A stretch of 63,821 nt of DNA, counting the filler, from Folioceros fuciformis (Eukaryota): assembly GCA_049999805.1 (NCBI GenBank). It is 4 parts of 3 records of this genome, joined end to end, with 100 filler letters (N's around TTAATTAATTAA, not from the genome) between each part and the next. Parts side by side here need not be neighbours in the genome. Positions count along the whole stretch, not along the records: positions 1 to 26,386 come from JBNGIO010006136.1; 3 more parts are not named here. One strand, given 5' to 3'. Below are positions 5,359 through 53,318 of the stretch, piece by piece. The stretch's first letter is position 1, and every line of letters begins with the position of its first letter. Position numbers and translations under genes: made by a program. A model generated the notes under the pieces. It did no database searches. It had not been told where the DNA came from and saw only the letters and a list, made by a program, of their open reading frames with translations.

Positions 5359-7287
5359 CGTACTCCCTGTAGCAAGGATGAAATGTTAGACTCGGGTCTT
5401 CATAACCTGGCAGGTGTCTTGGCAGGCTTTGCGTACAAGTCGTCGGGAGTTCTCCTGAGAAGTGCCTCCTTCTCTGAATTGTTCCGTGAAGATGGGACTG
5501 GCTGATGAGTGATGGATAACCTGTATATTTGAACGGCTGCTGACAGCTCTGTGTTGCGGCAGTGGAAGGCACTTCTCGGATTTGCAAGTAAATAAATTCG
5601 AAGTACCTGGAGGTGGACAGTGAGGCAGTTTCTTGAGCGGCAATAGGTCTGTAAAAAGCATCATAAAGGGTGTACCGGCATGTTTGATTGGAAAGGGAGA
5701 TCCCAGGCAGTGTGAAGGGGCTGGACAGTCCACGGCTTGTTGGTTGGCTGTCTGGGTATCGCCATGAATGTACAGGTCCAGAAGTGGGGATACAGTACTT
5801 TGTAGCTATGAGATTAGGGTACATTGCCATTTTTCTTTGCATCTATTCTTATGCTCGATTTGGAGCAGGTGCTATTTTGTAGCGTGACAGGATACGGGAC
5901 TTCTATTGGTCATTGACTAGATGTAGGGGCGATTGATTATCTGGTTGGATTTGTAGCCGTGATACTGTATGAGAGTATGAGGGCAACGGGTTTTTCATGT
6001 CGTGTGTGACGTATTTGGCTATTCTGCGGCCGGTTTCTGCAAGGAGCAACCGGGGTGGTGTTCCCATGTCCTGCATTTTGCCAAGCCATCAGGTTATGGA
6101 TACACTTATCAGGTTGCCATTGTACTGAGCAGTGAATTTTCAGTTTTAGTAAAGCAGGTTGCATTTTTGGTGTAATGCAGACATCTTCAAAGCTTTCAGT
6201 GCAATGGTGTTCGTCTTTTCCTTCCTAGCTCACGAAAATAGTGTGTACAGTTAGTCTAATTTGTATCTAGATGTTTCTTCCTATACTGTAAATTTTTGTT
6301 TTGTAAATACAAAGGAAGTTTGCACGCTGTCTTGGACGATGTTGACGGTTGGGTGCTATTCGAAACTAAGGGGACCTCTGGAAGGATCGGGCTCCCGGAG
6401 CCCCAATGGAATGCGATAAAATGGTGTGGAACAGTAGAATTTTAGTGGAAGGATGGATCTCCGTGGGACTTGGATTCTCTTGGAGTCTCAGGGACTTAGA
6501 TTCTAGTAAAACAATAGAATCCACTAATGGATTTTCGTCTATTAGAATGCTTGAAGACCCACCTACAAGGATTTTCGTAACGAGACTTGAATTCTACTCT
6601 ACTCTGTTAAGGACTGGATTTTTGTCATAGCACTGGGATTCTAATCATACTATTACAGTCCACTAAGATGGACTTCCATCATGAATTTGAATTCTATTAA
6701 AGTTCCCCATCTTCCCTCTAGGGAGGGTACCTATGGTAATTCCAGACCCATCTAAGTGCATAAGGTAATCCCAGAGTTCTTGCGGGCGAATCCAACTTGA
6801 TGATCTGGGCAAAAGGAGTTCTCACGGGAAATGAGCTCCTTTCTACAACAGAAAATGGCTTCGTGCAGCACAACTTCCCAGGGTCGGCAGCCGTCTTTGA
6901 GGCCCCTTGTGAAGAATCCGATGCGCTGAAAGTGATGGAATCGTCGAAGGATACCTGCCACTCTGCAATGGGCGGGCGCATTCCCCATTACAAACGGAAA
7001 TATGATAATGAATTTCGTGCGGCATAGGTTGCGACGACGCGGACTACCTACCTGCCCACCCATGACCGTTAGAGCGCTTATCATGGTCTGGATAGGCATA
7101 GACACGCCTACCACGCGTTGTAACGATTCCCGATATAGAATCTGAGATTATGCATAATTCAAAACAGTCCAGGTCTAGCCTGTTGTGAGTATACATACTT
7201 TGAAGAGGCGTGCTTTGAAATGACTCAAAGCTGCAGCTATGAATCCTCCTTTCATTTTCCTCCTGACATCAATGAGGAGAGTAAAAA

Positions 7288-9490
7288 TCACTTCGATACG
7301 GATACAGGGTAAGAATTGGTGGCATTGTCGAAAGTGCAGGCGCAGGTACACAAACTACGAGAGCCCTGCACCAGCCTTTGTGCTCTTCGCATATGCAGCT
7401 TCACCCATGGCAGTTTGGTAGCGACCTGCTTGTTCAAGGCACAGTAAGCAGAATTCTGGTGTCGGGCCGTCGGGCAACTTGATCACGTGCACCGTATGGC
7501 TTGTTTACTGCCACTTACCATGCGCCAGGTGAGGTCTTCAGGGCCGAACGGCTGCGCAGGATTCGAATACCGGAAATGTACAGAGTACTGCACAGTATGA
7601 ACAAAAGTTAGAGGAATAAGGCCCAACAGACGGCTTAAAGACATGGGCTTCACTCCTGCAATTAGCACCTCCGCGAGATGCTTGCGAAGGGACGCTCTCT
7701 GCTCGTCACCGATACCACGTAGATAACCCAACAACCAGCCAACTTGGAGTGCATCTTTCGAAGAGACAAATAATGCAATCTGCAAAAGTGCCACGAGGCC
7801 GACAAACTGTGAGGCCGAAACCAGAGACAAGCAAAACAGTTTGGGCAGCACAACAGACCGTGCGAGAAGCTTGTAGAGACAACGCACCTTCTTGTAGTCC
7901 AGAATCCCTTCGAAAGGGAGCTCCAACTCGTCGCTGACTATTACAGGAATGCAGCCACTTAGAATGGCATCAAAGAGCCTAGCTGAGGAGGGAGTATCTC
8001 CAGCTGGGCTGAGGCAAAAAATCGAGCTGAGACCGAAATGAGAGAGAGCAGGCAGGCGCATTAAACAGGGTAGCAGGCCGAAACAAGGAAAGAACGCGTC
8101 CCAAGACTGAAGCCACGTCGCATCTTCATCAATACCTGCGCATCCCGGACTGTGCAGCCTGCTTTCCCGCTTCACCAGGAGAACCTTCTTCTATTACCAC
8201 ATCGCCCTCGTTTTGCAGGAGGGCAGCTAGTTTATTACGGATCTTTCCTCCCTAATACCCACAGCGCAGAGGAGGACACAACGGGGGTAAGAAACTGGAA
8301 GACAAGGTGAGGTGGGGCAGGGGAAAGCTGCAACATGCTGGGATGTGGTGCACCACACCGCATTCCGCTTTATTCTTCCGCGAAAGAAAAGTAGAGTGCG
8401 CCTTTCAGGCAGGGACGAGATCAGACACGCAGTATCACAAGGTTCCACATTGGAAGCATATGGAAGGACCACATCCTTCTCCAAAGAGACTTGGCCGGGC
8501 TTGTACCTGCGTGGGCCAATGTGAGAGGAATGGATACTGTGAAATTTATGAGAAATAGCAGGACGGTAGTGGTACCAGTTTCCTGTCGCATCTAGGTCTG
8601 GAAGAAGCCATATTGCGTTCTTCACATGATGCCGAACTGACTTGAAAGACCAGGGATGGTGCAGTGGAAACACATGGTCCCTCCCACCAGAAAGGTGCCA
8701 TGCTGGCTGATCCAGAATCCAATCCAGAGCTTCCTACACTCCGACAGACTAACGAGTGAACGTCAGTGAAGACCCCGTGCAAGCTGCAGCCTGCCTTCAA
8801 CTAAAAGATCATCTAGAGAAGGAGTTGTGTGAGCACCCTATAAAGCCGCTTGCACACGCGCTTGTCCAGGAGGAAGAAGCTGATGGTGGTGAAAAAAGGT
8901 ACAAAAAAGACGTCGGCGTCCGACTGTTCCACCACTCGCACAACACTTTCCAACTGGCGCTGTGACTGGGGTAACACCAAGTCGGCATACAGCCAGTAGT
9001 CGACTGAATGCTGCCAGCCCAACAACTTCAATTTCAATCGAAGACGGGGACACAGATACGGTGAAGTAGGCAAAGGCAGACAAGGAAGTGGTAGGGGTAG
9101 CACCTGCTCGATGAGCCGATGGACAGGACTGCCATTGGACGTCCAATTGACAGTCTCCTGGTAGCTGGTGTAGAAGAGAGAGAGCAATTGGCGTGTGAAT
9201 TTCTCAGGCATGTCGTAAACATAGACTCTCAACGGCCGGGCTGCGCGCCAGATGCTGGCTGACGACGCCAGCTCGGGGGAAAGGACAGAGTGGGCAGGGC
9301 CAGGGGTAGGGGTAGCAGTCCTGGCCAGGAAGAACTCAAGGGAATGCAGAAACGAGCAGTCCACAGTGCTGGACCTGGAGGAACTGGTCCAGGACGCGAC
9401 AAAATAAGAGGGCACGAGCAAAGCTAAAACAGAGAGCAGGATGATGAGAGCGGCCCTTCTCACCACTCTCCTGACGAGCCGACCTGTCAT
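7288..9490 (-). CDS. ARAD1: Exostosin/GT47 glycosyltransferase, arabinosyltransferase ARAD1-like, multi-exon
   Basis: Type II membrane N-terminus [26 protein letters not shown]. Family motifs: [129 protein letters not shown]. Last exon [28 protein letters not shown] ends at TGA (7290-7288). Confidence 0.93.
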
Positions 9491-9571
9491 ATTGGAATTG
9501 CCAAGAGGAGAAACTCGGAGCCGGAAAGCTCTACCAGAGAAAAGAGAACAAAGCTTAGAACGGCAAGCCAC

Positions 9572-10057
9572 CTAGGCCTTTTTCTGATGCCGCAAGAGAG
9601 ACGATGTGGCCACCACAACTCGGATCTGTGTCACCACGACAACTAACACCTGCGTTCCCTCGAACACCCTAAACAAGATCGACCGCTGGTCACCGTTCTG
9701 ATTGTAGAGCTCAGCGGACGTGAGCGGTACAAGAGACAGCACGAGCGCCAGAACTGTTGCCACCATATAGCTCCTTAGCAGGATGGAAGAAGATCGCCTC
9801 AACCCTAGAATCCCCGCGCACACACCCCCGGCTCCTATGGCGCCCCAGGCCACAGCTGCAGCAGGAGCATGGGGCGGCCACAGGAAGAGCAGCCAGAGAG
9901 CCCGCACCAGGAGCAGTACGCCTTGAACCCTCAAGTACCTGCCCACAAGCAGCCGGCTCTTCGCAGCGCGCTGGAATCGCGAGTCGATGGTCATCCTGAA
10001 GCCATAGTCGGAGCCGTCCGTGCCCACGGGCCTGGCGCCCGGTCCTCTGTCCGGCAT
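9572..10057 (-). CDS. JAGN1: Jagunal-like ER membrane protein, single exon, 161 aa
   Basis: N-terminal jagunal signature RPVGTDGSDYGFRMTIDSRF, about four hydrophobic segments, and C-terminal QKKA resembling an ER-retrieval dilysine motif. Confidence 0.85.
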   Translation of the reverse strand: MPDRGPGARPVGTDGSDYGFRMTIDSRFQRAAKSRLLVGRYLRVQGVLLLVRALWLLFLWPPHAPAAAVAWGAIGAGGVCAGILGLRRSSSILLRSYMVATVLALVLSLVPLTSAELYNQNGDQRSILFRVFEGTQVLVVVVTQIRVVVATSSLLRHQKKA

Positions 10058-10481
10058 CGTCCGAGCCGTTGCGTTTGCAAAAGCTTGAATAAGTCTAACT
10101 GTGGGATGCCAATGCCATAGACCCCTTCTTGCTCTTATAGAGAATGATCTGCAGTTCGCGAGATCACTCCATGGATCTGTTCGGGTGGCACCGAGCTCCC
10201 ATTTTTGTCGGGGAGATATATTGTCGGATACTTTGCTAGTACATGTAATAGTAAAGCTTTAGTTTGCGACATTTTTGTTGAGGATAGTCTGCAGACGAGA
10301 ATCGATCCCGCGTCTTCGAGTTGAAGGATGATTCTCTACCACTGATCTATATTATATTGCATTGACACCGAAATGTGTAAGGTGAAGTCTCAGCCTCAGC
10401 TGAAGAACGTTGCATTGATGTACTTCGAAGGGGAACAGCAACTGGTCTGGGTAGATGGATAACTGGCAAGAGCGCGAAAGA

Positions 10482-13400
10482 TCAGAAGTCGAAGCTGACA
10501 GAGTGATAGTGGAAAGCAACAGGGCTTCCAAACAGGGAACTGTGCGACTGGCATTCCTCAGCGACGGTCTGTTGCAAGTTTAGTGGGCCGCACACCAGCA
10601 CTCCCACATGTGCATTTCGTCCAGCCAACCGCTTTTCCACCTCGTTGAACAGAGCTGCCTCAGCGAGAAAGACACGTTCGTGAGTGAAACTTCCTCTACC
10701 GTTGAACAAAATCAGCACGCAGGAAGTCAAGCCATTGAACCTAATCAGCAGGCACGCAGTGGATCAGAAGAGGCAGTGGTAGAAAACACACCATGAACAT
10801 CTGGACGACTGCCGTATTGGACGATTCCGGAATCCAGAAGTCTGCCAGTGAACGCCGATGTTGGAGACGCATTGGGAGCTGTCATCTCCGTTTCAGCGAC
10901 ATATCCAATGGCTGTGTCCGTGGGAGCAAAGCGAGGAGGCCGGTACAGCTGAGGCTGCACCCATGAAGTCCAAGCCAGTACAGTGGCTGCTCCGAACCCA
11001 ACGCCGACAGCGCACGCCAATAAGAACCACATCGCCTTCAGCCACGAACTGTAGTCATCGTAGTCCGGACCCGTGATGTAGTTGACGAAAAGAGCCCAAG
11101 CAAGCAGCAGGCCCATCACGGCCGCAGTGAGCACCAGGAAGTGGCCCAGATTACTGTCTTTGGCCACTTCCGGGCAGATGGGATGGAGTCTTCCGTCACT
11201 GTTGAATGCGGCCGCACAGTTGACGCCCTGCTTCGCTTTCTCCACCACGTCCTCCGGGTCTGCTACCTGCTGCCGGGTGACGAAGCCCAGGATGCGTAGA
11301 TTGAACGAGGAGTGAGGCACATCTGGGAAAGTCATGCGATTCAGGATCTGCAGCTCGTCGGCCTTGCGAACAGCCCACACCAATGTCACGTCCGTGGGTA
11401 GCTTGCCCGTCTCTCCGCCCCCGGTGTGGGTGCTGTAGCGGTGCATGAGGTCCTTTAAGATGGATATGAAGGGCGCGATTCCGCTCCCGCCGGCGACAAA
11501 CATCAAAGTGTCGTACCTTTGCGGATGCACAACACAAGTCCACACGGTCCTGATGCTTCCAAGCAGGATTCGAGCTAGGACGGCAATGCATCTACAATGG
11601 CACCTGGTCCAGGTGAGTGTCGACCACGATCATGAACGTACCTGAGGAAGTAAGGGTCTTCGTGTCCGTAAGGTCCCTCGACGGCAGCCTTGATGCCGAA
11701 CGGGCATCTCGAAGTAGTAGTCGTCGGCGAACCATCAGATGCAGCGCGATCCATCACGTCTCCATGGGCGTCGACTTCTACTCCAGCCAACCTCTCCAAG
11801 CCTGTTGTCCAACCTCCAGCCCGCTTCACCAGAATGGTGATGCGGTCCTTCTCCACGAGGGAGCTGGAGGCCATGGTGAAAGGGTGCCATTGCCACCATG
11901 ACAGTGCAGGTATCTGCACAAATACGAACGCCGCGGCGGTGTACTCCAGACCTGCCGTGGTACCGGCGTGATCCGACACAGCACGCGTCCAGCAATTGAG
12001 TAGTGAGATCTGGAGCAAAGCGACAAAAGTGCAAACAAAGGTCGCAGCAGCTAGCACGGACCTGGATGCTTGGCGAACACCAGCTCTATAGTGTCGCCCG
12101 GAAGACAACGAACGGATATGATGCCGGCTTCTTTTCTTGACTGGATGAATCGAAGGACGCGATCGAGCATGAAGATGAAGACGTAACCCATCCACATGAA
12201 ACCTGTCCACTCTCCCAGGTGGATCATGGAAAAGACCACCCACAGCACGTAGAGCTGGTGGAATCCGAAGAAGACCTCGAAGAATTTGGTCCGGACTGGA
12301 TACCACGACGTGACCATTATCGCCAAGCCAACCACTCCCGCAAGCGTTCCAGATAGGTAGTTGATTCCGGTGTGCTGCCATAACTTCCACTGCATCCACG
12401 GACACACAAATTCTCGAAATCAGTAAGTAGGTGGAGACCGTGATGCACTTGAGGTTGGATTGACTGGGTGGGCTCTTCACAGAATTGCAAATCTCTCGGT
12501 GCATTGGCCGGCGACTTCGTTAAGGCTACATGGATGTGTTGCAAGTTGCAGCATTAAAGACGCCCACGTCCAGACTTACTTCATGGAGCTTGTCCGTCCA
12601 CGCCCAATAGGCGTATATAAGGGCGGCATGCCCAATAGTGAAGACCATCATGATGAAGGCGGCCCACTTGTGATACTTCACAGCATGCTCGAACGGAATG
12701 TTCACCAGACGTAACAGCACCGACCCCCTGGAGACTGGCAGGAAGACGAACCCGAAGGGCACGATGATGCCGAAGCCAGCTATGAGAGCAGCATACAGCA
12801 GCTTGCCTTGATTTCTGCGATTGCCCCGCACAGAAACACCACAAGACACGGTGTTCAGTAGCCAGCAACAAATTTAAAGCAAGTTACGTGCGACAATCCC
12901 TCTACACCTGACAGGGGCCAGCAAATGGCATGCACACACCGAGTTATCTTGTTCTCGTCGAGCCAGTCTTGGGTGACGTACTCCTTGATGCCCAAATCAG
13001 TCCAGTATCCAACCGTCCAGCATGTTAGCGCCACCATGAAAATGATGAACGTGAGGTCTGCCGCTGACACCACCCCGAGGTAACTTCGCGTCAGCACCGG
13101 GTAGCTCCAGACGCTCACCCGAGGCCGGCCCCGAGCCACAATCTCGTCGAACCAGTTGTTAGCGCTGCACACAAGGGTCCCCGCGCCAGCGATCAGCCCT
13201 CCCGACCCGCATTTCATGATCATCCCACCTCTCCACCACCAACCCAATTGAATGCAGCACTCACACTCTTTGGATGGCTCTGGGAGAGACGACGTGAAGG
13301 TACAAGGCCGCCACCATTGCGATCAAGATGGCGATTCCTGTGAACAGAAACATGTAGTACGCTGCACAGGGCAGGTGGTGAGCACGACCGCATTTTCTCA

Positions 13401-15101: not shown

Positions 15102-17199
15102 ATGTCTTGCAACGCAGGTGAACACCGTCAGCACCCTATAACGTCAGCGGTGGGAGTACTCATTGCTCTTGGGTTTGCCATGGGCGTGTTCGTCTGCTTG
15201 TATGCCCAGTTTCGGCGAAAGAAACACAAGCGAAAGGCTACAGAGCTGCCTTTGAAAGACTCCTCTGCTCGCCATTGCTTGCTCCCTTCCTTGACTCATG
15301 AACAGGCTAAACCGCTTAATGGTGAGTTCTTCGTCTCAGCGTCCGCGGGCCACAAATGTGCCGTTTGGCTTCTTTATCACTTGAGCATCAGACAAGGCTG
15401 ATGAGTGAATTTTCGCAGGCAGGCAGCTTCTGTCCAGTATCACCTTTAATTTTGATTCACTGAGATGGGTTCCCAAGCACATAGAATTCTCATTGCCCGA
15501 GCTCAGTCTCGCTACCAACAACTTCCATGAAGCAAATGTCCTGGGCGAGGGAGGGTTCGGGAAGGTGTACATGGGAATCCTGCCTGTCCCCCCGTATACC
15601 AAGATTGCTATCAAGGTGTTACGGTCTGGGAGCACACAGGGTTCGAAAGAGTTCGTCACAGAGGTTGAGGTGTTGAGCAGACTTGATCACGACAATCTGG
15701 TAAGCTTTTGCACAAGTTTCCCTCCGACCGTCTGCTTCCAAGTTGACCATGAATACGGATTTACCTGCTGCACTTGGTAGGTGCGACTTGTAGGACACTG
15801 TGTGACTGACGAAGAGAGGATCCTTGTGTATCGCCATGTTGCCAACGGCAGTCTGGCTAATCATCTACATGGTAAGCGAAGTAGCTGTGTGTAGCTTTAA
15901 GCTTTTATAAGTTGAGACTTGGCTACTGGAGCTCGTCTGCTAAGAACGGTATTTGCAACTGCAGGAGGGGCATCAAACGGTTGCCCACTATCATGGGAGA
16001 TGAGGGTGAAAATCGCTCTAGGGGCTGGTCTTGGTATATACCATTTGCACCAACAGCATCCTAAGATTCTGCATCGTGACATTAAGGCTGCCAACATCTT
16101 GCTCACCCGGAGCTTCAATGCCAAGGCAAATTCCCCTCCTTTGAGTGCATGCTACAGCTCCCTTGCTGCTGTCTGTAGAGTTTAGTAGGTTTCACAGATT
16201 TTTTCTGTAATGCTGCCATCCTTTCAGGTTTGTGATTTTGGATTTGCGAAGCAAGTATCCGCAACCCCTCTTCATCCCAGCAGCGTAGGCCAAACACTGA
16301 AAGCGCAGTGCTGCACCCCCTCAAGGTCATGTGCAATGGGCACGTTGGGATATGTTGCACCAGAAGCGTTTGCCACAGGAGAGTTTTCATCTGCCAGCGA
16401 TGTCTACAGCTTCGGTGTGGTACTACTTGAACTCCTTTCTGGAAGGAAACCCGTCGATGTAACACGCCCTGACAAGGAAAAAAGTGTGGTTGGCTGGGTG
16501 AGCAGTGCTGACTTGCCCTCATGGACGTGGGATTTAGAAGCAGATCTTCTTTCTTGTGAATCGTAACCGTGCCTCACTTGTGCATTTGGACGGTTGCAGG
16601 CAAGGAACGCAGTCATGGATGGCAGGCTGAACAAGCTGATGGATCCTAACATGCCAAACTCGTCTGCCATCACACAAGAGTCAGTGATCGAATTCGCCAG
16701 AGTAGCAGTGGCTTGTGTTAGCATGGAACCCTCTTCAAGGCCAAGCATGGGTGACGTAGTGTATGTGCTACAGAACTTACAGGCCGGTACGTTTTATGTG
16801 ATGCTGTCATGCTACCCGATAATTGATGCTTCTGCATTTTGGTTGGGCGAATTCGCTTACGGTTGCAGATTGTGGGATTGTCTTTCAGGCCATAAGGTAC
16901 GGCAATCGCAGCAAGGAGGCGCATGGGAGGTTGAGCGAGAAAGCTCAGATTGCCAACCAATCTCCTCCTCGTCGCCATCAGGCGATAGCTCGAAGGTGTT
17001 CTACGATTTTCCTTCTTCAAATTTCGCTTCTCCGGCTCCGGATTTCAGTGTCGATGAGCCAGGCACTGATGAGGAGGTGCAGTCCGTTCTCAGTGTGGCG
17101 GAGGAAGGCTGTGCAAAAAATGTCAAAGCGTTCTCTTGGCTTAAAGACACCATGTCAAGCGTTGCTTCGACCACCAAGGGCTTGATGATGAGGGGATGA
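15102..17199 (+). CDS. Receptor-like kinase (Pelle/RLK family) with TM helix but no visible ectodomain, multi-exon
   Basis: TM segment [19 protein letters not shown] followed by RRKKHKRK. Kinase motifs: [106 protein letters not shown]. The true start is uncertain because a splice acceptor also exists at ~15117. Confidence 0.88.
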
Positions 17200-18126: not shown

Positions 18127-19111
18127 ATGCTTAGGGTCAGCCTCCGGGCGATCCTGCAGGCTAGGCCTGGAGTTCGCCAAGCGTTCGTCACTGGTCGATC
18201 GCCACACGGCGTCCATGCCAATGCCTCGCCCACTGCAGGGCTGCCGGGGCAATGTGCTTTGTCTGAGGGTTGTGGCAGAGGGTGCTCCAGCCAGGCCGGA
18301 GCTTCTGCAGGTTGCTCTCCTGCTTTTCTCCCGTCTTTTGGACACGCCAGGTCGTTTCTCAACCTACGGCAGCTTGGCTCTCAGGTAGCAGCTCTCCACC
18401 AGAGGTAGGCAGCAGCGGTGCGGAGCAGCTGCAGCCACCCACTTCGAGCCTGAAGGTGACGAAGACTGGTACGTACGATTTGGACTACGACAACGACCGT
18501 GGCATGATACCAGTGGAGGGGAGCAACACTCACCTGTATGATGCACGAGGGCTCGTGGAGAAGTGGCTTGGTCATCCCACGTTCTGGGGCATGATTTCAG
18601 GTGGGGAGCTTTTCATCGAGTTCAATTAGGGTTTCAGTGTCTTCCGGCCTACGCTCTCCAGCGTTGTTGAGCTACATTGGCAGCAGCTACTGGCTGGAGT
18701 GTGCAGAGGATGCTATTGCCAAGACCGAGGCCTCCAGGGACGGGCCTTTCGGGGAAGGCCCGATTTTGCGTTGGCAGACCAGGGTTGTGCTGGGACCTGG
18801 TGGAGACGGATTCCACCCTGCCAATCGTAAAGTAAGCGTGGCGGTTTATGTGAAGGAGCTTGGGATTTCCCGGCGTGCCAAGGCCCGGCTTTTGGCTCTC
18901 GTGGGGAAGAGGTACAATCCGGGCAAGGATGAGCTGACCATCACCAGCGAAAGGTACGCCGAGACTCTCATTTCCCTTCCGCTGCATTTTGAGGTAGGGT
19001 CTGAGCATGGATTGATGCTTGTGAAAACCCAGGTACGAAGAGCGTGAGGAGAATCGCAAGGATGTTCTGAAGACGCTGATTGCTCTCATTCATGAAGCCA
19101 AGGCAGCCTAG
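18127..19111 (+). CDS. Mitochondrial ribosomal protein mS35 (S24/S35 family)
   Basis: YWLE..PILRWQTRVVLGPGGDGFHPANRKVSVAVYVKELG..RLLALVGKRYNPGKDELTITSER|YEEREENRKDVLKTLIALIHEA*. The Arg-rich N-terminus resembles a mitochondrial presequence. 5' exon structure is unresolved. Confidence 0.85.
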
Positions 19112-19710: not shown

Positions 19711-21964
19711 ATGGATTTTCTGGATGCCGCCAGCAGCAACTCCAGTGAGGCTGGATCTTCCTCGGATGCGCACTCTTCACTTGGCTCTATCTTCTCGTCC
19801 CTGGATTCGAATGAGGATTCTGTCCTGAAGGTGGATGGCAGCGATGGTGAGGCGGGCACTGCTGGGGCATTCAGCGACTTGGGAGCTGTCGATAGTGTGG
19901 TTCGAGTGACTAATGTAGTCCGTGGATGTGGCCTTGATTATGGCGCCAGCGATACAATGCTTGGCCAAGAAACTGCTGTTTGTGCTCGACAGAAGACTAC
20001 AAAGTCAGATTCACGTTCTCCTACTGCCCTCGATAGGATGACAGACACGCCGTGCGCTTCGATGCCACATAGTAAGGCCAAGTCAGAACGCAGTGTCGCC
20101 GTCTCTGGCAGGAGGAAGGTGTTTGTGCTCAGCCTCGATGGTGGCGGGATTCGCGGTGTTATTGCTGCACGCGTCCTTTCCAACTTAGAGTCTGTGCTTC
20201 AGGTTTTCCACTGAACTTGTGTCAGCATCGCCGCACCTCCACTCTGTGCTTCAGGTTAGTTGCCAACCTTGTATGCTCGTAGTCTGAGGGCCTCATGGAT
20301 CTTCACACCGTTTTTTGGCAGGAGAAAACTGGTGAGGAAGTGCAACTGTGTGACTACTTCGATCTCATAGCGGGAACCAGCACTGGAGCAATATTGACTG
20401 CAATGATTGCCACTCCTGATGAGACTGGGAAGCCATTGTTCACCGCCAAGGGATGTTGTGACTTCTATGCAAAGTATGGAAAGCGAATATTTAAGAAGCG
20501 TCTGCTGGATCATGTTTTTGGAACTGTGAGGAAGCTCTACCAGCCAAGATATTCAGCTAGGGGATGGGAGAAACTGCTGAAACATTACCTTGTGAGGAAT
20601 GGCATCGCCCTCACACTGAGGGATGTGCTAAAGCCTATTCTTATTGCTTGTTTTGACATCTCTCAAGCTGTACCTTTCTTCTTTGCACGTAGTGCGGCCA
20701 TGAAAGACGAAAGCAGAAACTTCAGGTGTAGCCTGAACCAATTGCACAAAGTGACATTCTGGGGTGTACACGTCTTTGCGTTCGTCCGAGGAGGTTTGAC
20801 CATCTTTGATGATTTTCCACTTATGCAGATTGTGGGAGGCTATCCGAGCGACTACCGCAGCCCCCACTCTCTTTCCACCTGCAGAGATCACGTCGGTTGA
20901 CGGCAGGCAGTCGGCTACGCTGGTGGATGGCTGCATCATTCAAAATAATCCGGTGAGGATTCTACTTTGTGGAGAACAGAATCTCGTCGCACATGTTTTT
21001 TCTGCATCTGAGCCTTGCCACTGGTTGTAGGCACTGTTCGCATTGACTCATGTGCTGGGAAACAATGAGGAGTTCCCCGAGGCAGCTTCTTTACAAGATG
21101 TGATGGTGAGTTTCCATGTCTCCCTCCTGCTGTTCAGGCTCTTTCAACGAAACCATGACCTTTCACGTACAGTACTGTCAAATATCGATATTTGCCAAGA
21201 CAGATTTTGTCACTGGGAGCTGGACAGGTGGATGAAAGCCATGAGCTGCGGCATGCCAAGAAATGGGGTATGACAGGCTGGGTACGCCCCCTCCTAAACA
21301 TCATGATGGCCGGGACCTCCGGTGAGTGTGCTCCTCTCATCTAGCCTTTCTACATTGTTGCTGGCTTTCCATATTGTAGCTATCCATGAAACAGCGTTGC
21401 AACATTCGTGTGATTCATATCCCGCCACATCATGCTTGCAGACACAGTCGACTACCAGCTCGCAGCAGCCTATGCTGGGCATAATTGCTCCCCAAACTAC
21501 CTTCGAATTCAGGTACTTTACTGCTGTAGGTGTCCCTGGGAAGCATTTCCGTCATGCCGTGCTGAGTGGTCTCACTTTGCGAAATCTGGCGTGTTCAGCT
21601 TCTGGGTCTTCAGAAGGAGAAAAGTGCGGTGGATTGCACAAGCAAGAAGAACATTGAGGAGCTGATGAGGGCTTCTGATGACTTACTTCTGCAGCAGGCT
21701 GTGATGTTCAACGCCCACGGAGAAAGAGTGAGAATAGTTGAGACGTACGCTGACCGACTTTCATGGTTTGCTGATCAGTTGATCGCTGAGAAAAAGTACA
21801 GAGATGAACCAGAGCACCTCAGAATGTTCCATCACCAAAAGGCGGCTGGAATTCCATCTAGGTTTGGACCAGCTGCACGTATGCTATCACCTCTTTTCAG
21901 CCATTTAGCAGCCCACGAAAGAGAGTGGGGTTCCAGCGGCAAGTCTGCATCGTTTCGAATTTAA
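19711..21964 (+). CDS. Patatin-like phospholipase, multi-exon
   Basis: VLSLDGGGIRGVI oxyanion motif, DYFDLIAGTSTG (GxSxG nucleophile), ATTAAPTLFPP, LVDGCIIQNNP, ILSLGAG, AKKWG and NYLRIQ. Confidence 0.92.
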
Positions 21965-22143: not shown

Positions 22144-22914
22144 CTAACTGTTCAACCCAACGTCAGCCTTGCCGGACAAATAATGATTCAACATGTCATC
22201 CTCATCCAAATCCTCATCGCCAAAATCCTCCTCGAAATCATCGATCTCATCCTCGTCCTCGTCATCCGCTGTATCCAGGATGGGCTTTCCACCCTTGCTT
22301 GCCAGAGCCCTACCCGACTCAAACCAGAAACGTCCTGTGATCCTCTTTTCCCTAGCAGCCACCAGAGCTGCTTCCGGAAGCAATTTAGCTCGCTCGAGGG
22401 CCTGTTCCGCCTCAAATCGCTCTCGCCAGGCTAGGAAAGTGGCCACCGTAACCAACTCCCCGTGGGGTTCGATCACCTCATCCTTTTTACTCTCCAGATC
22501 CTCTTCCACGGCGTCCACATCAGGCCCCTGGGTGCCGTAATGTTCCCTCAGCCACTCTTTGGCTGTGGTTACGAGCGTGTAGATCATGGCCATGCCAAGA
22601 TTGCTTTCTATCTCGCGTGTCACCACCTCCTTCAACAGCTTGAGATCATTAGCCTTGACGCCCTGCAAGCTCCTCACATCAAATAGCGGCGGCTCATCAG
22701 GATACTTGGGGGTGTGCGCAAACACAAGAGCTAATCGAACAGGAATGTCTGCCATGTCTTCTTCGTCGTCCCCGGTTGGTGTAATCGTGATCTGAAAGCA
22801 GCGGCTGGCCGTCCCAAGTCCACCCTGCCCACTCTCCAACTCCGCCATGTCCTCCATCAGTATGGCTTGCAGAGCCTCCAATTCCATGTCCTGTTCCTGC
22901 TCGTGCTCGCTCAT
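22144..22914 (-). CDS. RWD domain protein (RWDD1/GIR2/DFRP2-like), single exon, 256 aa
   Basis: EQEQDMELEALQAI, HTPKYPDEPP, NLGMAMIYTLV, PHGELVTVATFLAWRERF, KRITGRFWFE and an acidic tail. Confidence 0.92.
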   Translation of the reverse strand: MSEHEQEQDMELEALQAILMEDMAELESGQGGLGTASRCFQITITPTGDDEEDMADIPVRLALVFAHTPKYPDEPPLFDVRSLQGVKANDLKLLKEVVTREIESNLGMAMIYTLVTTAKEWLREHYGTQGPDVDAVEEDLESKKDEVIEPHGELVTVATFLAWRERFEAEQALERAKLLPEAALVAAREKRITGRFWFESGRALASKGGKPILDTADDEDEDEIDDFEEDFGDEDLDEDDMLNHYLSGKADVGLNS

Positions 22915-23217
22915 CGTGACTGCCCGGTCTCACCCCTTGCTCCCCGCACCTCGCGACCAGCTCCCGAGTTACGTTTGTATTAGGTCGGAATAAAATTCTG
23001 CAGCTCAATCCGTTGACATCAATATGTATGACGTTGTTTTCCTTCCAAATTCTCAAACTTCGAAGTAAGAGAGGTTGGAGAGAGTACCATAATGGAGCCT
23101 ATAACTAGTACTTTTTTATTATTGAAAAAGTGCCATCCACTCCAAAGATTGGAGGTCCGACAAAGGTCTTAGTCGAACATCATTCTCAAAAATTACATAA
23201 CATTCATAAAATATCAT

Positions 23218-23985: not shown

Positions 23986-26111
23986 TGTTAGGTTTAATTA
24001 GTGATCAATCGTATTTAACCTACTTAGGTTAAATTATATTCAAGGGTCATACCCTTAGGGTTGCCCATACATATTAACAAAGTTTTGTCTTTTTTTTAAA
24101 CACTTGAGATATACACATATATAGTATTGTACACAAAAGTCTCTGCCTCTTGGCTCTCTTGCATATTTTATGCTAAATGACTATCTTGTGATAGTTTACA
24201 TGGTATCAAAGCCTAATCCCTCTGTGCCATTCGATGCAACCACTACACCCTGCACTTGGTCTGCTAAGATTAGCAAACATGCTGCTGCACAGAAATACGA
24301 GAAGCATACATTAGCAATCCATGAGAAGGCAGCCAAATTGCTGAGAAAAATGAATATACTAAGTTCTCACTTCTTGTCTGGGAGATGAAACAGCAACAGG
24401 CACAATGCCTCGAAAGTCTACAAACAGGAGATGTGGCCCCCAACCTAACCACCTGTTTGGACAGAGATAAGATGTGAGAAGAAATTCAGCACATGCTGAA
24501 TATTCAAAATTTGATTAGCAAAGAGGGAGACAAACCTCACATTGCTGCGAAAGGAGAAGGAATACACCTCCACCTTGCCCACACCCAATTCGTCAAGTAG
24601 CATATCCAACTGCACCACAAGCAAGACGATCATCAGAAGTGGTTCTAACCAACGTGGTTTACAGACAATTAGTTGTGCTAAGGCAATAGCGCAATGGCAT
24701 AGCCATTGCTCTACTAATTGGAGGCTTGGATGCTGACCTTGTACCAGAAGTCGAATTCCTGAAAAACGCTTATGAGATATGAAAAAAAAAAAAAAAAAAA
24801 AAAAAAAAAACGGCAGTGTTAACCCTGTGTGCAGTGAAACACGAATTCTATAATCTAAAGATGAGAGAGGGAGAAAAGGTATCGAACTTCACAAGCAAGT
24901 TTCGACATCTAAAAGCTTAAATTGCATCACTCATTGGAACCAAGATGGGTGAAGTGGATGTTGTTGCTGAGCTCCTCATTAGACTACCACCTTCGTACCA
25001 GTCATTTATTACTAGCCAGAATGGCCCTATGCGGACTACACATGATGCTGCTGCTTCTAGAAGTGTAAGCACCATCACCCTTGAAGAGGTCATCGATGCC
25101 TTGTACCAGGAAGAGCACAGCAGAATGTTTTCGATGGGAGCTCCTAAGAGCTGAACAGAGAAGGCATTAGCAACAAATCATAGGACATTCAAAGGAAAAG
25201 GCAAGGCAGGAGGTAAACCTGTGCAAACTTCTGATTTCTCTAGCCCATCTAAACGACCTGGAATTGCAACTGGTGTGGCATAGCCGTTCATTGGGCTCGA
25301 GAATGCAAGAAGAAGAAGGTAGGAGAACCTCGAAGAACTCCTAAGAATACTGCAACTGTTGCGATTAAGGAGAAGAACATCGGTGACACCAAACCAACGG
25401 TGAAGATACTTACAGTCTGCCTCGCTAGATCCATAAGTGATGAGGGTGGCTGGTATTTAGACTTTGGTGCCACGTCACACATCTACAAAAACAAGGATCA
25501 GTTCTATATGCTGAAAGCTGATCACACAGCGAAAAGAGTTCTGCTGGGAGATGAAAGGAACCATTCCAGTCTTCCTATTCTAGGCTGTGGGACATGCAAG
25601 TTCACTTGATATCTGTACCCTTCATCATAAGGCAAGCTTAGTCTCCAAACATTCCCAACGCCTTGCTATCCTATGGCATGTCAGGCTTGGTCATGTTAAT
25701 AAACAAAAACTAGTAGACATGTCTCTACAAGAGTGTCATTTAGAACCCTTACCTCAAGCCTTTAAGGACCTGCCGTCTTGTGAAGCCTGCATTGTTGCAA
25801 ACAGAAGGCTCATCCTTTTCCAGTCGCAGCATCCTACAGAGCCACAAATGTGTTAGAACTAGTGCATGCAGACATCTCTAGAAAAATGCAAATCCCATCT
25901 CTGGGAATTCCATATATTACCTACGCATCACAAATGATTACTCTCGCTACACTTGGACATATCCAATGCAACTGAAGAGTGACACCTTCGATCTTTTTCG
26001 AGAATGGCTGCTGATGGCTGAAAAACAGATAGGACATTTCGTTAAATATATCTGGACTGACAATGGAACAGAATTCCTGAACCACGCTTTTGATACATTC
26101 CTCCAAGAGAG
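23986..26111 (+). mobile_element. Degenerate Ty1/copia LTR retrotransposon (5' LTR, PBS, gag, protease, part of integrase)
   Basis: Putative LTR TGTTAGG(23986)...TTTACA(24200), then PBS TGGTATCAAAGC (tRNA-iMet type, 24201-24212). Fragments: LPPSYQSFIT, zinc knuckle CNWCG..HWAREC, WYLDFGATSH, LWHVRLGHVN, CEACI, LVHADI, WTDNGTEF. Many stops and frameshifts. Confidence 0.9.
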
Positions 26112-26386: not shown

Positions 26387-26486
26387 NNNNNNNNNNNNNN
26401 NNNNNNNNNNNNNNNNNNNNNNNNNNNNNNTTAATTAATTAANNNNNNNNNNNNNNNNNNNNNNNNNNNNNNNNNNNNNNNNNNNN
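26387..26486. other. Artificial contig linker N44-TTAATTAATTAA-N44
   Basis: Identical 100-nt structure at three places; the 12-mer has stops in all six frames. Confidence 0.97.
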
Positions 26487-31093: not shown

Positions 31094-31376
31094 TTCTTCT
31101 ACCTCTCCCGCTTTTCTGAATTGGCCTTCTCTCTCTTCCGCACTTGGTTCCGACTGCTCTTGGGCTGGCGGTTGTATAACGGTGACGGGTCGGGTTTTCT
31201 GGGTTAGTGAAAATGTATGTTTTCACGTACAATTTCTGCACAGTAGCTCTTCTTAGGAATGCGTCAAGCCAGGAGCGTAGCATCTGTTGCTGGCATTGCC
31301 AGCCATGGCTGTTTGGGGCGTTGCAATGGAGTCACGCGGACAAGACACATAGTGACCACAGTTCCTGGACTGTGAA

Positions 31377-34300
31377 ATGCGGTTGTCCAATGGCTTCTGT
31401 GGGGCGAGCTTCCGCTCCCCTGACTTCGTTCCAGTGCCGGGTACTGACGAACAAGGAAGGCGTCAGGTGCAATTTTGCAAGAACGGGGAAACAAGGCGCT
31501 CGTTTGGATTTCGGGAATCTCAGGAGGTTTTGTGTGTGAACTTGTCGACGAGGGTGGATGCTGTTCTGGAACTCCAGGTGGATCGTCGTGCTTTCGAATG
31601 CAAGGGGAGCTTGCCGGATGATGCTGACCCTCACGGGCCTGCAGGGTGTGGAAGGGGCGTAACGGATGAAACAGTTATCAGGCTATGTCATCAGGACCGT
31701 CTGTATGATGCTCTTGAGGCGTTGGGAATTCTTGTGCTGACGGACTGTTCTGGTGTTTCAAGGCCTGTCTTTTATACTGTTCTGAAGCAGTGTGCAGCCA
31801 AGAAGGATCTTGTTCTGGGTCGCCGCGTCCATGCTTTCACGGTGAGAAGCGGGTACCAGTCGGACACGTTCTTGTGCAACCACATCTTGCGAATGTATGC
31901 TTCCAATGGCGGGTTGCAGGAGGCCATGGATGTGTTCACCGGGGTGGCCCAACCAGATGCTTTCATTTGGTCTTCTATAATTTCGGCCCACGTCAAGCAC
32001 GAGCAGGACAAGCAGGCCATACAACTGTACCGGCAGATGCGCAGGTCACGTGTGAAGCCAGATGGGCATGTGTTTGTGGCCGCCCTTCAGGCTTGTGCAA
32101 TGGGAGCAGATTTGAAAACTGGGCAGGAGCTGCATGCTGATGTGCTGGCCAGCGGCGTGGAGCCTGATTTATTTGTATCTAGTAGCCTGGTGGACATGTA
32201 TGCAAAGTGTGGCAGCTTGGAAGACGCTCAACGAGTGTTTGACGCTCTTGTTCATAAGAATGTGGTAACGTGGAATGCTCTGCTAGCAGGGTATTCCCAG
32301 CAGGGCATGGGACAAGAAGCACTTCGGCTCCACGGTGCCATGCAAGAAGAAGGCAATGTCGTACCTGATTCCCTGACTTTTGCATGCATTCTGCGGGCAT
32401 GTGCAATTGTGGGTCCCCCAGCGTTGGTGAAGGGGAAAGAGCTTCACGCACAAATCAGAAAACTCGGATATCAAACTGATGTGGTTGTAGCCAGCAGTTT
32501 GTTGAACATGTATGCGAAGTGTGGCAGCTTGGAAGATGCTCAGAAACTGTTTGACGGACTTGGCCAGAAGGATGCGGTAACATGGACTGCCCTAATCGCA
32601 GGATATTCTCACCATGGCATGGGCCAGGAATCCCTTCGTCTATACAATGCCATGCAAGAAGGCAAGGCCATGCCCGACTCTGTGACTTTTGTGTGCCTCC
32701 TGCAGGCGTGTGCAAGTGTTGGCAACCCAGCTTTGCAGGACGGAATTCGTCTTCACACGCAAATTAGAGAACAAGGACATGAAGCCGACGCATTTGTGGC
32801 CAGCAGTCTGGTAAATATGTATGCCAAGTGTGGCAGTTTGGAAGATGCTCAGAGACTGTTTGACGGACTTAGTCAAAAAGAGGTGGTAACCTGGAATGCT
32901 ATGATGGCTGGGTACTCTCAGCAGGGCAACGGGCAGCAAGCCCTCCATCTCTACAGTGCTATGCAAGAAGAAGGCAGCACTATTCCCAATCCTGTTACCT
33001 TTGTGTGCCTGTTGCAGGCATGCGCCCACATGGGCACCCCAGCCTTGGAGGAGGGTAGGCAGCTTCATGCACAGATCAGAGAACAAGGACACCAAGCTGA
33101 TGTGTTTGTAGGCAACAGTTTGGTGAACATGTATGCAAAGTGTGGCAGCTTGGAGGATGCTCAGAGAGTGTTTGATGGGCTTGGTCAAAAGGATGTAGTG
33201 TCGTGGACTGCTCTAATTGCAGGATACTCCAATCAGGGACTGGGCCAGGAAGCTCTTGATGTGTACAGTGCTATGCAAGATGAAGGCATCGTTATACCTG
33301 ATTCTGTGACATTTCTGTGCCTTCTGCAGGCATGTGCTACTGTAGGCACCCTAGCTTTGGGAACAGGGAAGCAGCTTCATGCGCAAATTCGACAGCGCGG
33401 ACATCGAACCGATGTATTTCTAGCCAACAGTTTGGTGTACATGTATGCAACTTGTGGTAGCTTAGAGGATGCTCGTAGAGTATTTGATGGTCTTGCACAC
33501 AAAGATGTGGTCACGTGGAATGCTATGATAGCAGGATATTCCCAGCAGGGCATGGACCAGGAAGCGCTCTCTCTCTACAGCGCTATGAAAAACGATGGCA
33601 TCGCTGTACCCAGTGCTGTAACATTTGTTTGCCTCCTGCAGGCATGTTCAAATGCGGCAGCTTTGCATGTGGGAAGGCAGCTACATGCCCAGATTGACGA
33701 ACAGGGACTTCAAGCTGATGTGATAATAGCTGGCAGTTTGATACATATGTATGCAAAATCTGGTAGCATGGTTGATGCACGGCAGGTGTTTGAGGGATTG
33801 CCCGCAAGAAATATTGTCGCCTGGAATGCGTTGATTGCAGGATATAGCCATCAAGGAGACAGCAGTAAGGTTTTCGACTTGGTTATCAAAATGAGAGAGA
33901 ATGACATCCAGCCTAATGGCATTACGCTCCTTTATGTACTAATAGCATGTAGCCATGCGGGTCTGGTTAGCGAGGGGCGACGTTACTTCGAGGATATGAG
34001 CAAGCACTGTGGGATAATCCCCACAGTGGAGCATTACACATGCATGGTAGATCTCCTGGGCCGTGCGGGCCGAGTGGATGAGGCAGTTGCTCTGATAAGG
34101 ACGATGCCTGTGGTGGCTGATGTTGCAATCTGGCATAATCTGTTGGGTGCCTGCCAAAAATGGAGCAATGTGGAGTCCGGACGCCATGCTTTTGACCAAG
34201 CAGTTAAGCTGGACCAGAAAGATGCAGCAGCATATGTATTGATGTGGAACATTTACAATGATGCTGAAATGTGGGAACTGGCAAACGAGGTGCAAGCGAG

Positions 34301-53000: not shown

Positions 53001-53318
53001 TCGTTCACATCCACGGAGCTGCGAGGCACCTATGCACCGCCGTTCCATGTGAGTTCCCCCTTAGTCAACTGGCGGTTGAGCATGCGTCCAGCTGTGAGGT
53101 CAGCTTCACTGTACCGTAACGTGTGTGCCTCTCTGTCATTCCCTCAGGTCGAGCTGTTCCGCAACGACCAGCACCGACTGAAAATTGTGATAGACTTGGA
53201 GAACGAGGTAGACCTGATGGTGCAGTCGCGACATATCCGAGATGTGATTGTCCTCGTGCTGAGAGCCCTTGCCCAGAGATTCAACAGCACACCCTTGAAT
53301 CTGTTGCTCAAGATGTGA
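44038..53318 (+). CDS. AIR9: 187-kDa microtubule-associated protein AIR9 (basic S/P-rich N-terminus, LRRs, A9 Ig-like repeats), many exons
   Basis: DPRFINLPSVDVKAGDDV|RLDLRGQKVRSL, LRR exons (LYLAGNQITSL, FLSVAQNKIKSL), repeated A9 units (YFGGREGPS.FEW, PVRSDG..GEP), VDGQGYHTSLYAVRGLYFGGKEG, and C-terminal RDVIVLVLRALAQRFNSTPLNLLLKM*. Confidence 0.96.

What the first reader, a model, noticed from the sequence alone, without database searches (positions are those of the whole stretch)
9488..10057. Candidate bicistronic/readthrough locus: intronless jagunal ORF 81 nt upstream of, and in frame with, ARAD1-like GT47
Seen: the jagunal TAG (9574-9572) and the GT47 ATG (9490) are on the same strand, separated by 81 nt (27 codons) with no in-frame stop, and no TATA or AATAAA is visible in the spacer. 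Established: jagunal proteins are ER membrane proteins linked to secretory trafficking and glycosylation, GT47 ARAD proteins are Golgi type II enzymes, and bicistronic nuclear mRNAs are rare in land plants (CDC26-TTM3 is the known type case). Inference: there is little room for a separate terminator and promoter. The two ORFs may share one mRNA (reinitiation or leaky scanning, or UAG readthrough giving a fusion), possibly because a jagunal retrocopy landed in the GT47 5' leader. That would couple an ER factor to a wall-polysaccharide enzyme.
Basis: partly seen in the sequence, partly recalled or inferred. Interest (0 to 1): 0.78.

Follow-up and report, generated by a model that had tools for sequence, protein, structure and literature searches.

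The report
Two plant genes, probably one mRNA
In a hornwort-like plant, a small ER membrane-protein gene (jagunal) has lost its introns and sits 81 bases in front of a cell-wall glycosyltransferase gene, probably on the same messenger RNA; this would be a new land-plant case of one mRNA carrying two genes, but translation of both from one molecule is not yet shown.

Summary
In detail: a 161-codon jagunal ORF (10057-9572) ends 81 nt before the ATG (9490) of a nine-exon, 479-aa GT47 gene. Own-genome searches found one copy of each. One spliced contig from a public run covers jagunal, the spacer and GT47 exons 1-4 without a break. The spacer is A-poor (11%), and the first AATAAA-like hexamer lies 1,024 nt past the jagunal stop. 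A shared RNA is therefore likely (about 0.7), but a contig cannot exclude overlapping mRNAs.

Stop-codon readthrough is unsupported: 41-50% of comparable 81-mers are open by chance, and the spacer scores as non-coding. The pairing looks derived. Other plants keep an intron that this jagunal lacks (16 of 16 distinct loci), no GT47 lies beside jagunal in 52 related loci, and Selaginella has the two genes on different scaffolds.

Five upstream AUGs make GT47 translation by leaky scanning or reinitiation uncertain; an internal GT47 promoter is the main rival. In the same genome CDC26 lies 96 nt before a biotin carboxylase gene instead of TTM3, hinting at more such loci. Nothing shows functional coupling of the two proteins.

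The parts
10133..10140 (-). TATA-like word (CTATAAGA) upstream of jagunal; candidate core promoter of the whole unit
   Evidence: Only TATA-like hit among three words scanned over 7000-10500; 47 nt upstream of the first base of the X1 contig. Function inferred.
10058..10093 (-). Part of the 5' leader covered by RNA contig (36 nt, no AUG)
   Evidence: Record 3 of X1 begins at 10093; a contig does not show the true start.
9572..10057 (-). ORF1: intronless jagunal homologue, 161 aa, four predicted membrane helices, ends in KKA
   Evidence: single copy in G000; lacks the intron found at this site in 16 of 16 distinct plant loci.
9991..10005 (-). Out-of-frame 4-codon uORF inside jagunal; AUG in strong context (A at -3, G at +4); its stop overlaps the AUG of the invariant Met22
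   Evidence: Met22 invariant in 34 of 34 aligned proteins.
9835..9870 (-). Out-of-frame 11-codon uORF, AUG in weak context (C at -3, C at +4)
9764..9766 (-). Last AUG before the GT47 start (in-frame Met98; T at -3, G at +4); the next 275 nt are AUG-free
9491..9571 (-). 81-nt inter-ORF spacer; 11% A, 68% pyrimidine; non-coding by codon score; unspliced in the RNA contig
7288..9490 (-). ORF2: GT47 (exostosin-family) glycosyltransferase, 479 aa, nine exons (9490-9104, 9010-8837, 8733-8576, 8506-8359, 8251-8136, 8026-7888, 7779-7669, 7587-7519, 7425-7288), N-terminal membrane anchor at about residues 13-32
   Evidence: Eight GT-AG junctions in X1 contigs give an open 479-aa frame; 59-71% identical to 19 plant orthologues; the only locus in G000 with 47-86% identity across all exons.
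7136..7287 (-). 3' untranslated region covered by RNA contig (152 nt)
   Evidence: Record 1 of X1.
10359..10484 (-). Context: stop codon and 3' UTR of the upstream ferric-reductase (FRO-type) gene, on a separate RNA contig; 424 nt from its stop to the jagunal ATG
   Evidence: Pfam; record 4 of X1.

Best explanation
One transcription unit, started upstream of jagunal, makes a spliced mRNA of about 2.2 kb that carries two separate ORFs, jagunal then GT47, and both proteins are made from it at least in part.

Shown: the anatomy, the GT47 splicing, continuous RNA cover across the spacer, and that both genes are intact and were found once in the assembly.

Inferred: (1) that single molecules span both ORFs. 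(2) That scanning ribosomes mostly start at the first AUG (A at -3, C at +4, short leader) and make jagunal, while some leak past it, translate the strong 4-codon uORF, resume scanning, pass the two remaining AUGs with a pyrimidine at -3, and start at the GT47 AUG (A at -3). GT47 output would be low and adjustable. (3) That the arrangement arose in this lineage when an intron-free, probably reverse-transcribed, jagunal copy came to lie in the GT47 leader and the intron-containing parent was lost; the A-poor spacer would be what is left of the GT47 5' UTR. No functional link between the two proteins is needed.
For: Record 3 of run X1 (1,471 nt, no mismatches) covers 10093-9104 in one piece and continues through spliced GT47 exons to 8358; no joint lies in jagunal or the spacer. 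The exon-2 piece is not among the rows shown and is inferred from two joints with the same depth. After the jagunal stop the first AATAAA-like hexamer (one mismatch allowed) is at 8550, 1,024 nt on, in GT47 intron 3. The spacer has 9 A in 81 nt against 25.5% in the two local 3' UTRs (binomial P 0.001) and 24-32% in the first 150 nt after the stop of three other plants' jagunal mRNAs. Both genes were found once and are intact, so both proteins are presumably made. AUGs are sparse in jagunal: 1.04 per 100 nt against 2.36 in ten local coding stretches (Poisson P 0.012), and 5 against 8-11 in three other plants' jagunal CDS. ORF1 (483 nt) is the size typical of algal upstream ORFs (medians 444 and 600 nt; PMC7896298). 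Origin: a GT donor follows the same codon in 16 of 16 distinct plant loci (38 of 38 contigs) and is absent here; retroposition is the origin proposed for human bicistronic pairs (PMC13303939). A second locus of similar layout, CDC26 96 nt before a biotin carboxylase ORF, exists in this genome.
Against: A short-read contig across two genes does not show a single transcript; overlapping mRNAs would merge, and X1 is one run of one study, marked RNA only by guess. Five AUGs precede the GT47 AUG, one in strong context; in algal reporters one extra AUG cut ORF2 output to less than half, or to background (PMC11291117). In Arabidopsis 7 of 8 tested readthrough RNAs barely translated ORF2, and most were NMD targets (PMC9768141); here the jagunal stop lies upstream of eight exon junctions. 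The AUG shortage is largely explained by the protein sequence: synonymous recoding expects 2.9 out-of-frame AUGs against 2 seen (P 0.38), and the 275-nt window was chosen after looking. The spacer's A content is not below that of local introns (P 0.13), and a pyrimidine-rich leader fits an internal promoter equally well. The poly(A)-signal scan is weak: the one 3'-UTR hit for GT47 (7256) is 120 nt from the contig end. The pairing is not conserved in any plant examined. No parent gene or insertion scar was found. OST4 and TOM22, upstream ORFs in algae, show no recognisable close downstream partner here.
Confidence: 0.45

Rival explanations
1. Two starts, one end. The long RNA exists and is the jagunal mRNA, with spliced GT47 as its 3' UTR, but GT47 protein comes mainly from a shorter mRNA started at a TATA-less promoter inside the 3' half of jagunal or the spacer.
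For: No AUG in the 275 nt before the GT47 AUG (0 of 1,912 overlapping 275-nt windows in ten local coding stretches are AUG-free); a pyrimidine-rich, A-poor spacer; five upstream AUGs on the long RNA. Polycistronic-like loci in Populus carry single-gene RNAs too (10.1101/2025.07.17.665350). It fits the contig and the lack of a jagunal poly(A) signal equally well.
Against: No TATA-like word inside jagunal or the spacer; the promoter would overlap a constrained coding sequence; the long RNA would be a likely NMD target with no translated downstream ORF to protect it (inference).
Confidence: 0.27
2. Two separate, overlapping mRNAs in a gene-dense genome. Jagunal is polyadenylated inside GT47 exon 1 or intron 1, GT47 starts inside jagunal, and the assembler merged them.
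For: A contig cannot separate overlapping RNAs; hornwort genomes are gene-dense (PMC8075897); local 3' UTRs covered by contigs are only 123-152 nt; plant poly(A) signals are degenerate (recalled).
Against: No AATAAA-like hexamer in the first 1,024 nt after the stop; spacer 11% A and GT47 exon 1 16% A against 26-28% at the two local 3' ends.
Confidence: 0.2
3. A fusion protein is made by UAG readthrough, or by an intron that removes the stop: four jagunal helices, a 27-residue cytosolic linker, then the type II GT47.
For: The spacer is in frame and open. The topology is feasible: four predicted helices would leave the jagunal C-terminus on the side of the GT47 N-terminal tail (inference). Nine in-frame GT-AG pairs exist on paper.
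Against: An open frame has 41-50% chance; the spacer's codon score (-8.45) is below every 27-codon window of jagunal and GT47; GC3 is 0.33 against 0.71 and 0.59. No stable structure follows the stop (z -0.19 and +1.5). No joint in the spacer in X1 (rare forms can be lost). No fused protein among longer candidates (weak) and no jagunal-like sequence in 124 proteins dominated by GT47 homologues. GT47 has a normal family N-terminus from 9490. In algae in-frame pairs occur at the chance rate of one third.
Confidence: 0.05

Closest known systems
CDC26-TTM3 (CPuORF HG30) and HG8 CHCH-Mic1, the dicistronic mRNAs of land plants
   Same: A small conserved protein that acts on its own is encoded upstream of an unrelated enzyme. 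HG8's small ORF has different partners in different taxa (PMC3426882), as jagunal and CDC26 seem to here.
   Different: ORF1 is a 161-aa four-helix membrane protein against 65 aa for CDC26. The pairing is not conserved in the other plants examined. In this genome CDC26 itself lies before a biotin carboxylase ORF.
Exclusively polycistronic loci of green algae, translated by leaky scanning (PMC7896298, PMC11291117)
   Same: ORF1 size, spacer under 100 nt, apparently short leader, no poly(A) signal after ORF1, fewer AUGs than average, secretory-pathway proteins among the partners (OST4).
   Different: A land plant; five upstream AUGs with one in strong context; exclusivity, start sites and translation untested. 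'Jagunal' and 'exostosin' do not occur in the 7 supplementary files of PMC7896298 held as text.
Readthrough transcripts of Arabidopsis (PMC9768141) and polycistronic-like RNAs of Populus (10.1101/2025.07.17.665350)
   Same: An RNA spans two same-strand nuclear genes in a land plant.
   Different: There the first gene has its own poly(A) site or single-gene RNAs coexist, intergenic splicing is common (158 readthrough RNAs), and ORF2 is rarely translated. Here the spacer is only 81 nt, unspliced, and leaves no evident 3' end for ORF1.
STREMI-SLC35A4 and other human bicistronic pairs proposed to arise by retroposition (PMC13303939)
   Same: Two genes of independent origin are joined; one is intronless; the downstream product is a Golgi glycosylation protein; no direct functional interdependence was found there.
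   Different: There the intronless, retroposed ORF is the downstream one and ORF1 is a microprotein; here the intronless ORF is upstream and full-sized.

Membership tests
Jagunal (PF07086) | N-terminal GTDGSD-type motif and homology to jagunal proteins | tested here: met
   Motif residues invariant in 34 aligned proteins; 55 homologues, 53 with a PF07086 hit at E<=0.001; atlas top cluster Jagunal 88% of members, score 0.93.
Jagunal (PF07086) | Pfam score over the curated cut-off | tested here: inconclusive
   24.7 bits against 25.4, E 2.9e-5; the protein is divergent (best identity 39%).
Jagunal (PF07086) | Four-helix membrane fold of human JAGN1 | tested here: met
   Model pLDDT 85.5 with four long helices; 6WVD is rank 1 in Foldseek (prob 0.99, E 0.075, TM 0.54) and the only profile hit under E 0.5.
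Jagunal (PF07086) | ER residence and role in secretion or glycosylation | not testable with these tools
   Known from animals (abstract starts); no paper held jagunal, Arabidopsis, plant and endoplasmic reticulum together.
GT47 glycosyltransferases | Exostosin domain and N-terminal type II anchor | tested here: met
   PF03016 over cut-off in three exon-containing frames; hydropathy peak at residues 13-32.
ARAD1 arabinosyltransferase | Orthology to Arabidopsis ARAD1 and arabinan activity | not tested
   Orthologues carry the automatic name 'probable arabinosyltransferase ARAD1'. The nearest Arabidopsis-genus protein aligned is 511 aa (P0155); I recall this as the uncharacterised At5g16890 group rather than ARAD1, from no call.
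Algal-type bicistronic mRNA | Transcripts span both ORFs | tested here: inconclusive
   One spliced short-read contig bridges both; no long reads were listed.
Algal-type bicistronic mRNA | Poly(A) signal at the downstream gene only | tested here: inconclusive
   No AATAAA-like hexamer for 1,024 nt after ORF1 and an A-poor spacer, but this lineage's signal is not established.
Algal-type bicistronic mRNA | Start site at the upstream gene only; poly(A) tails at the downstream gene only; co-expression | not testable with these tools
   Contigs show no starts, ends or levels.
Algal-type bicistronic mRNA | Both ORFs translated as separate proteins | not testable with these tools
   Indirect only: both intact, conserved and found once.
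Algal-type bicistronic mRNA | Weak ORF1 start context and few AUGs before ORF2 | tested here: inconclusive
   First AUG has A at -3 and C at +4; four more AUGs follow, one strong; density is low (P 0.012) but not beyond the protein's own make-up (P 0.38).
Conserved plant dicistron (CDC26-TTM3 type) | Pairing conserved across land plants | tested here: not met
   0 of 52 related loci have a GT47 hit; 24 of 38 genomic contigs hold the last exon and at least 935 nt beyond it; different scaffolds in Selaginella moellendorffii. No other hornwort locus could be read.
Programmed stop-codon readthrough | Coding-like, conserved extension with a stimulatory signal after the stop | tested here: not met
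Retrogene | Loss of ancestral introns | tested here: met
   Intron after the same codon in 16 of 16 distinct plant loci, absent here; multi-exon layouts.
Retrogene | Parent copy, target-site duplication or poly(A) remnant | tested here: not met
   One copy in four searches; no convincing flanking repeat, the best being 11 nt with a mismatch and an arm inside the GT47 CDS; no A-run in the spacer. Such scars decay with age.

The most novel reading that the evidence does not exclude
Hornworts use obligate, alga-style bicistronic mRNAs for ordinary single-copy genes, and small upstream ORFs move between host transcripts: a 161-aa four-helix jagunal rides in the leader of a GT47 gene, and CDC26 has left TTM3 for a biotin carboxylase gene. 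The downstream enzymes would be made only by leaky scanning with reinitiation, on RNAs that escape nonsense-mediated decay despite many exon junctions after the first stop.
Probability: 0.22. Interest if true: 0.82.

Novelty: new member of a known kind. Interest (0 to 1): 0.55.

Why it matters
Land plants have very few known mRNAs that make two independent proteins, and their upstream ORFs are small. A natural case with a 161-aa membrane protein upstream would show how far plant ribosomes can leak or reinitiate, and how such an RNA survives nonsense-mediated decay. It would also give a derived, datable example of a two-gene mRNA forming by intron loss and relocation. With the CDC26 partner change it makes a direct test possible: are alga-style bicistronic loci common in hornworts? 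If the internal-promoter or overlap reading is right, it is only a tight gene pair that annotators should not fuse.

Tried and rejected
Readthrough fusion: rejected. Recent retrocopy beside a living parent: rejected as far as the assembly goes; the one other hit (E 1.29) was set aside as chance. Conservation across land plants: not found.

Rows dropped before the intron count: of 52 loci, four (L013, L015, L017, L026; 69-70% GC, only a short motif match) were treated as chance and ten (L003-L012) as transcripts, leaving 38.

No RNA holder is on record for this stretch; X1 is RNA by guess, and I rely on its nine GT-AG joints. The uncovered bin 10143-10283 in X1 and the contig depths are not used as evidence. 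X2 gave one 51-nt match and X3 none; both are uninformative.

The word-index search with jagunal found nothing; the exhaustive search did. A planned positive control, CDC26-TTM3 in this genome, failed: the TTM3-like end lies at a contig edge and the next contig does not continue it. OST4 and TOM22 showed no close partner by inspection of downstream AUG frames only. The bacterial promoter scan is irrelevant here. The GT47 tree cannot place the organism (long branch). Earlier-findings look-ups returned nothing. The DNA around the nearest relative P0001 could not be read, so conservation within the lineage stays open.
Full report
VERDICT. The anatomy is real, and a shared RNA is likely (about 0.7) but not proven. 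Readthrough to a fusion is unsupported. The open question is whether GT47 is translated from the long RNA (0.45) or from an mRNA of its own (0.47 over two rivals).

1. OBSERVATION. On the minus strand an ORF runs from ATG 10057 to TAG 9574-9572 (161 aa). It is followed by 81 nt without an in-frame stop and by the ATG at 9490. The spacer has no TATA-like word and no AATAAA at up to one mismatch. Frame and openness are chance-level: 49.6% of 20,000 shuffles and 247 of 606 local non-coding 81-nt windows are stop-free. What needs explaining is the short distance. The upstream ferric-reductase gene ends 424 nt before the jagunal ATG.

2. THE TWO GENES. ORF1 is a divergent jagunal. Pfam gives 24.7 bits against a cut-off of 25.4. 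An exhaustive search found 55 homologues, best identity 39%, of which 53 hit PF07086 at E<=0.001. The model has four long helices (pLDDT 85.5), and human JAGN1 is the top match by profile and fold. ORF2 is a GT47. Eight GT-AG junctions in RNA contigs give an open 479-aa protein with an N-terminal anchor, 59-71% identical to 19 plant orthologues. Its N-terminus from 9490 looks like the family's normal start. 'ARAD1' is an automatic database name. ARAD1 belongs to GT47 clade B (PMC3342304, passages), but orthology to it was not tested. Four searches found one jagunal in G000, including a pattern that lies within the ancestral first exon. One locus matches the GT47 orthologue at 47-86% over its exons; the other matches are 24-47%. 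The assembly is fragmented (7,240 contigs), so single copy is a lower bound. The genome encodes an intron-split LCIB-family gene, which among land plants was found only in hornworts (PMC8075897, passages), so the organism is probably a hornwort (inference).

3. RNA. One run, X1, holds the stretch; it is RNA by guess only, but its contigs join nine GT-AG introns. Record 3 (1,471 nt, no mismatches) covers 10093-9104 in one piece and continues through spliced exons to 8358. It therefore bridges jagunal, the spacer and GT47 exons 1-4, with no joint in the spacer. The FRO gene is on a separate contig. A contig across two genes does not show a single transcript, and contigs show no starts, ends or levels. 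Joined with the downstream contigs, the RNA would be 2,195 nt.

4. DOES JAGUNAL HAVE ITS OWN 3' END? The first AATAAA-like hexamer after its stop is 1,024 nt away, in GT47 intron 3; the first exact ones are in exons 4 and 5. The spacer is 11% A and exon 1 16% A, against 26-28% at the two local 3' ends (binomial P 0.001) and 24-32% after the stop in three other plants' jagunal mRNAs. The spacer thus resembles a leader or intron (P 0.13 against introns), not a terminator. This is suggestive only, because the lineage's poly(A) signal is unknown and the scan's one GT47 3'-UTR hit is 120 nt from the contig end.

5. HOW COULD GT47 BE MADE? Five AUGs precede its start: 10057 (A at -3, C at +4), 10005 (strong; four codons), 9994, 9870 (weak) and 9766 (T at -3). 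After 9766 come 275 AUG-free bases. AUG density in jagunal is 1.04 per 100 nt against 2.36 in ten local coding stretches (P 0.012), but synonymous recoding shows the out-of-frame count is ordinary (P 0.38). In algae ORF2 is reached by leaky scanning, and an added AUG cuts it sharply (PMC11291117, passages). In Arabidopsis 7 of 8 tested readthrough RNAs barely translated ORF2 and most were NMD targets (PMC9768141, passages). Pure leaky scanning is therefore doubtful here. The route I think most likely is leakage past the first AUG, translation of the 4-codon uORF, resumed scanning and a start at 9490. Reinitiation after short uORFs is established (PMC11062462, passages); its use here is inference. 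The main rival is a second, TATA-less start inside the 3' half of jagunal, which the AUG-free stretch and the pyrimidine-rich spacer fit equally well.

6. READTHROUGH. The spacer's codon score (-8.45) is below every 27-codon window of jagunal (minimum -2.55, held out of training) and GT47 (minimum -5.18); its GC3 is 0.33 against 0.71 and 0.59. It has no significant structure. No fused protein appeared among longer candidates (weak evidence), nor jagunal-like sequence in 124 proteins dominated by GT47 homologues. In algae in-frame pairs occur at the chance rate (PMC7896298, passages).

7. ORIGIN. Of 52 related loci none has a GT47 hit. Thirty-eight are plant genomic contigs (16 distinct sequences, including groups outside the seed-plant clade); all have a GT donor after the same codon where the window reads straight through, and 24 of 38 hold the last exon and at least 935 nt beyond it. 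In Selaginella moellendorffii jagunal lies on scaffolds of 751,281 and 4,143,896 bp and the GT47 orthologue on scaffolds of 1,708,524 and 970,821 bp. Intron loss and the new neighbour are thus both derived, which fits retroposition followed by loss of the parent, as proposed for human bicistronic pairs (PMC13303939, passages). Against a firm claim: no parent, no insertion scar, and another long unbroken ORF in the window (Rad17, 657 codons from its first Met), which may point to wider intron loss (that RAD17 has many introns in flowering plants is recalled). The sister sequence P0001 (support 98/97) is a full-length unbroken ORF on a contig of up to 16 kb. If that contig is genomic, the intron loss is old; its neighbours could not be read.

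8. A SECOND LOCUS. Looking for CDC26-TTM3 as a control, I found the only CDC26 hit (60 aa, intronless) 96 nt upstream of an ORF leading into a spliced biotin carboxylase gene, not TTM3. A TTM3-like end sits at the edge of another contig, so a second CDC26 there is not excluded (the TTM3 label is my reading of a CYTH hit). RNA for this locus was not examined, and its spacer holds one short AUG frame. OST4 and TOM22 showed no close partner. So 2 of 4 small genes looked at, one of them the finding itself, have this layout.

9. COMPARISON AND NOVELTY. It would work like the algal bicistrons and CDC26-TTM3. Membership is unproven because single molecules, start sites and translation could not be tested, and it fails the conservation test of CDC26-TTM3. 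Dicistronic small ORFs with changing partners were noted before (HG8; PMC3426882, passages), and RNAs spanning two genes are common in Populus (10.1101/2025.07.17.665350, passages; its supplements were not seen). I found no report of this pair or of nuclear bicistrons in hornworts: no paper held both 'jagunal' and 'polycistronic', and the top 25 rows listed in each showed none. The library lacks most subscription papers, and the original CDC26-TTM3 paper was seen only as cited by others. JAGN1's link to glycosylation comes from animal work (abstract starts). Nothing here ties it to this enzyme.

10. SCORES. Interest 0.55; new member of a known kind. The bold reading, alga-style obligate bicistrons with mobile upstream ORFs in hornworts, has probability about 0.22 and would merit 0.82.

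Noticed in passing
L069 1611-760, minus strand (G000:C6320): The only CDC26 hit in the genome (60 aa, intronless) lies 96 nt upstream of an ORF with a biotin carboxylase N-terminal domain in a spliced gene, not upstream of TTM3 as in other plants and algae. A possible partner swap; RNA not examined.
   Followed up: partly
L067 1662-1447, minus strand (G000:C2113 edge): A CYTH-domain C-terminus that I read as TTM3 sits at a contig edge with its upstream lost; about 370 nt after its stop another ORF begins, with a Cys motif that I recall as GFA-like.
   Followed up: partly
window 35900-38026 (-) and 22147-22929 (-): Rad17 is one unbroken frame of 709 codons and an RWD-domain gene one of 261 codons, in a region where other genes have many short introns; intron loss may be wider in this lineage.
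   Followed up: no
window 10359-about 13300 (-): Ferric-reductase (FRO-type) gene with Ferric_reduct, FAD_binding_8 and NAD_binding_6 domains, spliced in X1.
   Followed up: partly
window 7423-8358: Several GT47 joints in X1 have a lower depth than the flanking contigs and the introns have cover, which may mean retained introns; contigs cannot quantify this.
   Followed up: no
window 56623-60690 (-), 61009-62610 (-), 25253-25606 (+): Ty1/copia polyprotein in two frames, a Ty3 gag with zinc knuckle, and a pol fragment. Observed only.
   Followed up: no
window 26387-26486, 55471-55570, 60910-61009: Three assembly joins, each 44 N, 12 bases, 44 N; the finding lies within one contig.
   Followed up: yes
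window 15409-16563, 18595-19044, 20283-20897, 31356-34433, 39153-40721, 45720-53315 (+); 54664-55470 (-): Other genes by Pfam: protein kinase, mitoribosomal MRP-S28, patatin-like, a 1,026-codon PPR ORF, filamin/CCCH/RRM protein, AIR9, and NMP1.
   Followed up: no
L064, L065 (G000:C1919): LCIB-family carbonic anhydrase gene with introns, a hornwort marker among land plants.
   Followed up: partly
P0052, P0054: Two database proteins join a jagunal N-terminus to unrelated domains (RanBP zinc finger; SET); probably gene-model fusions, not examined.
   Followed up: no
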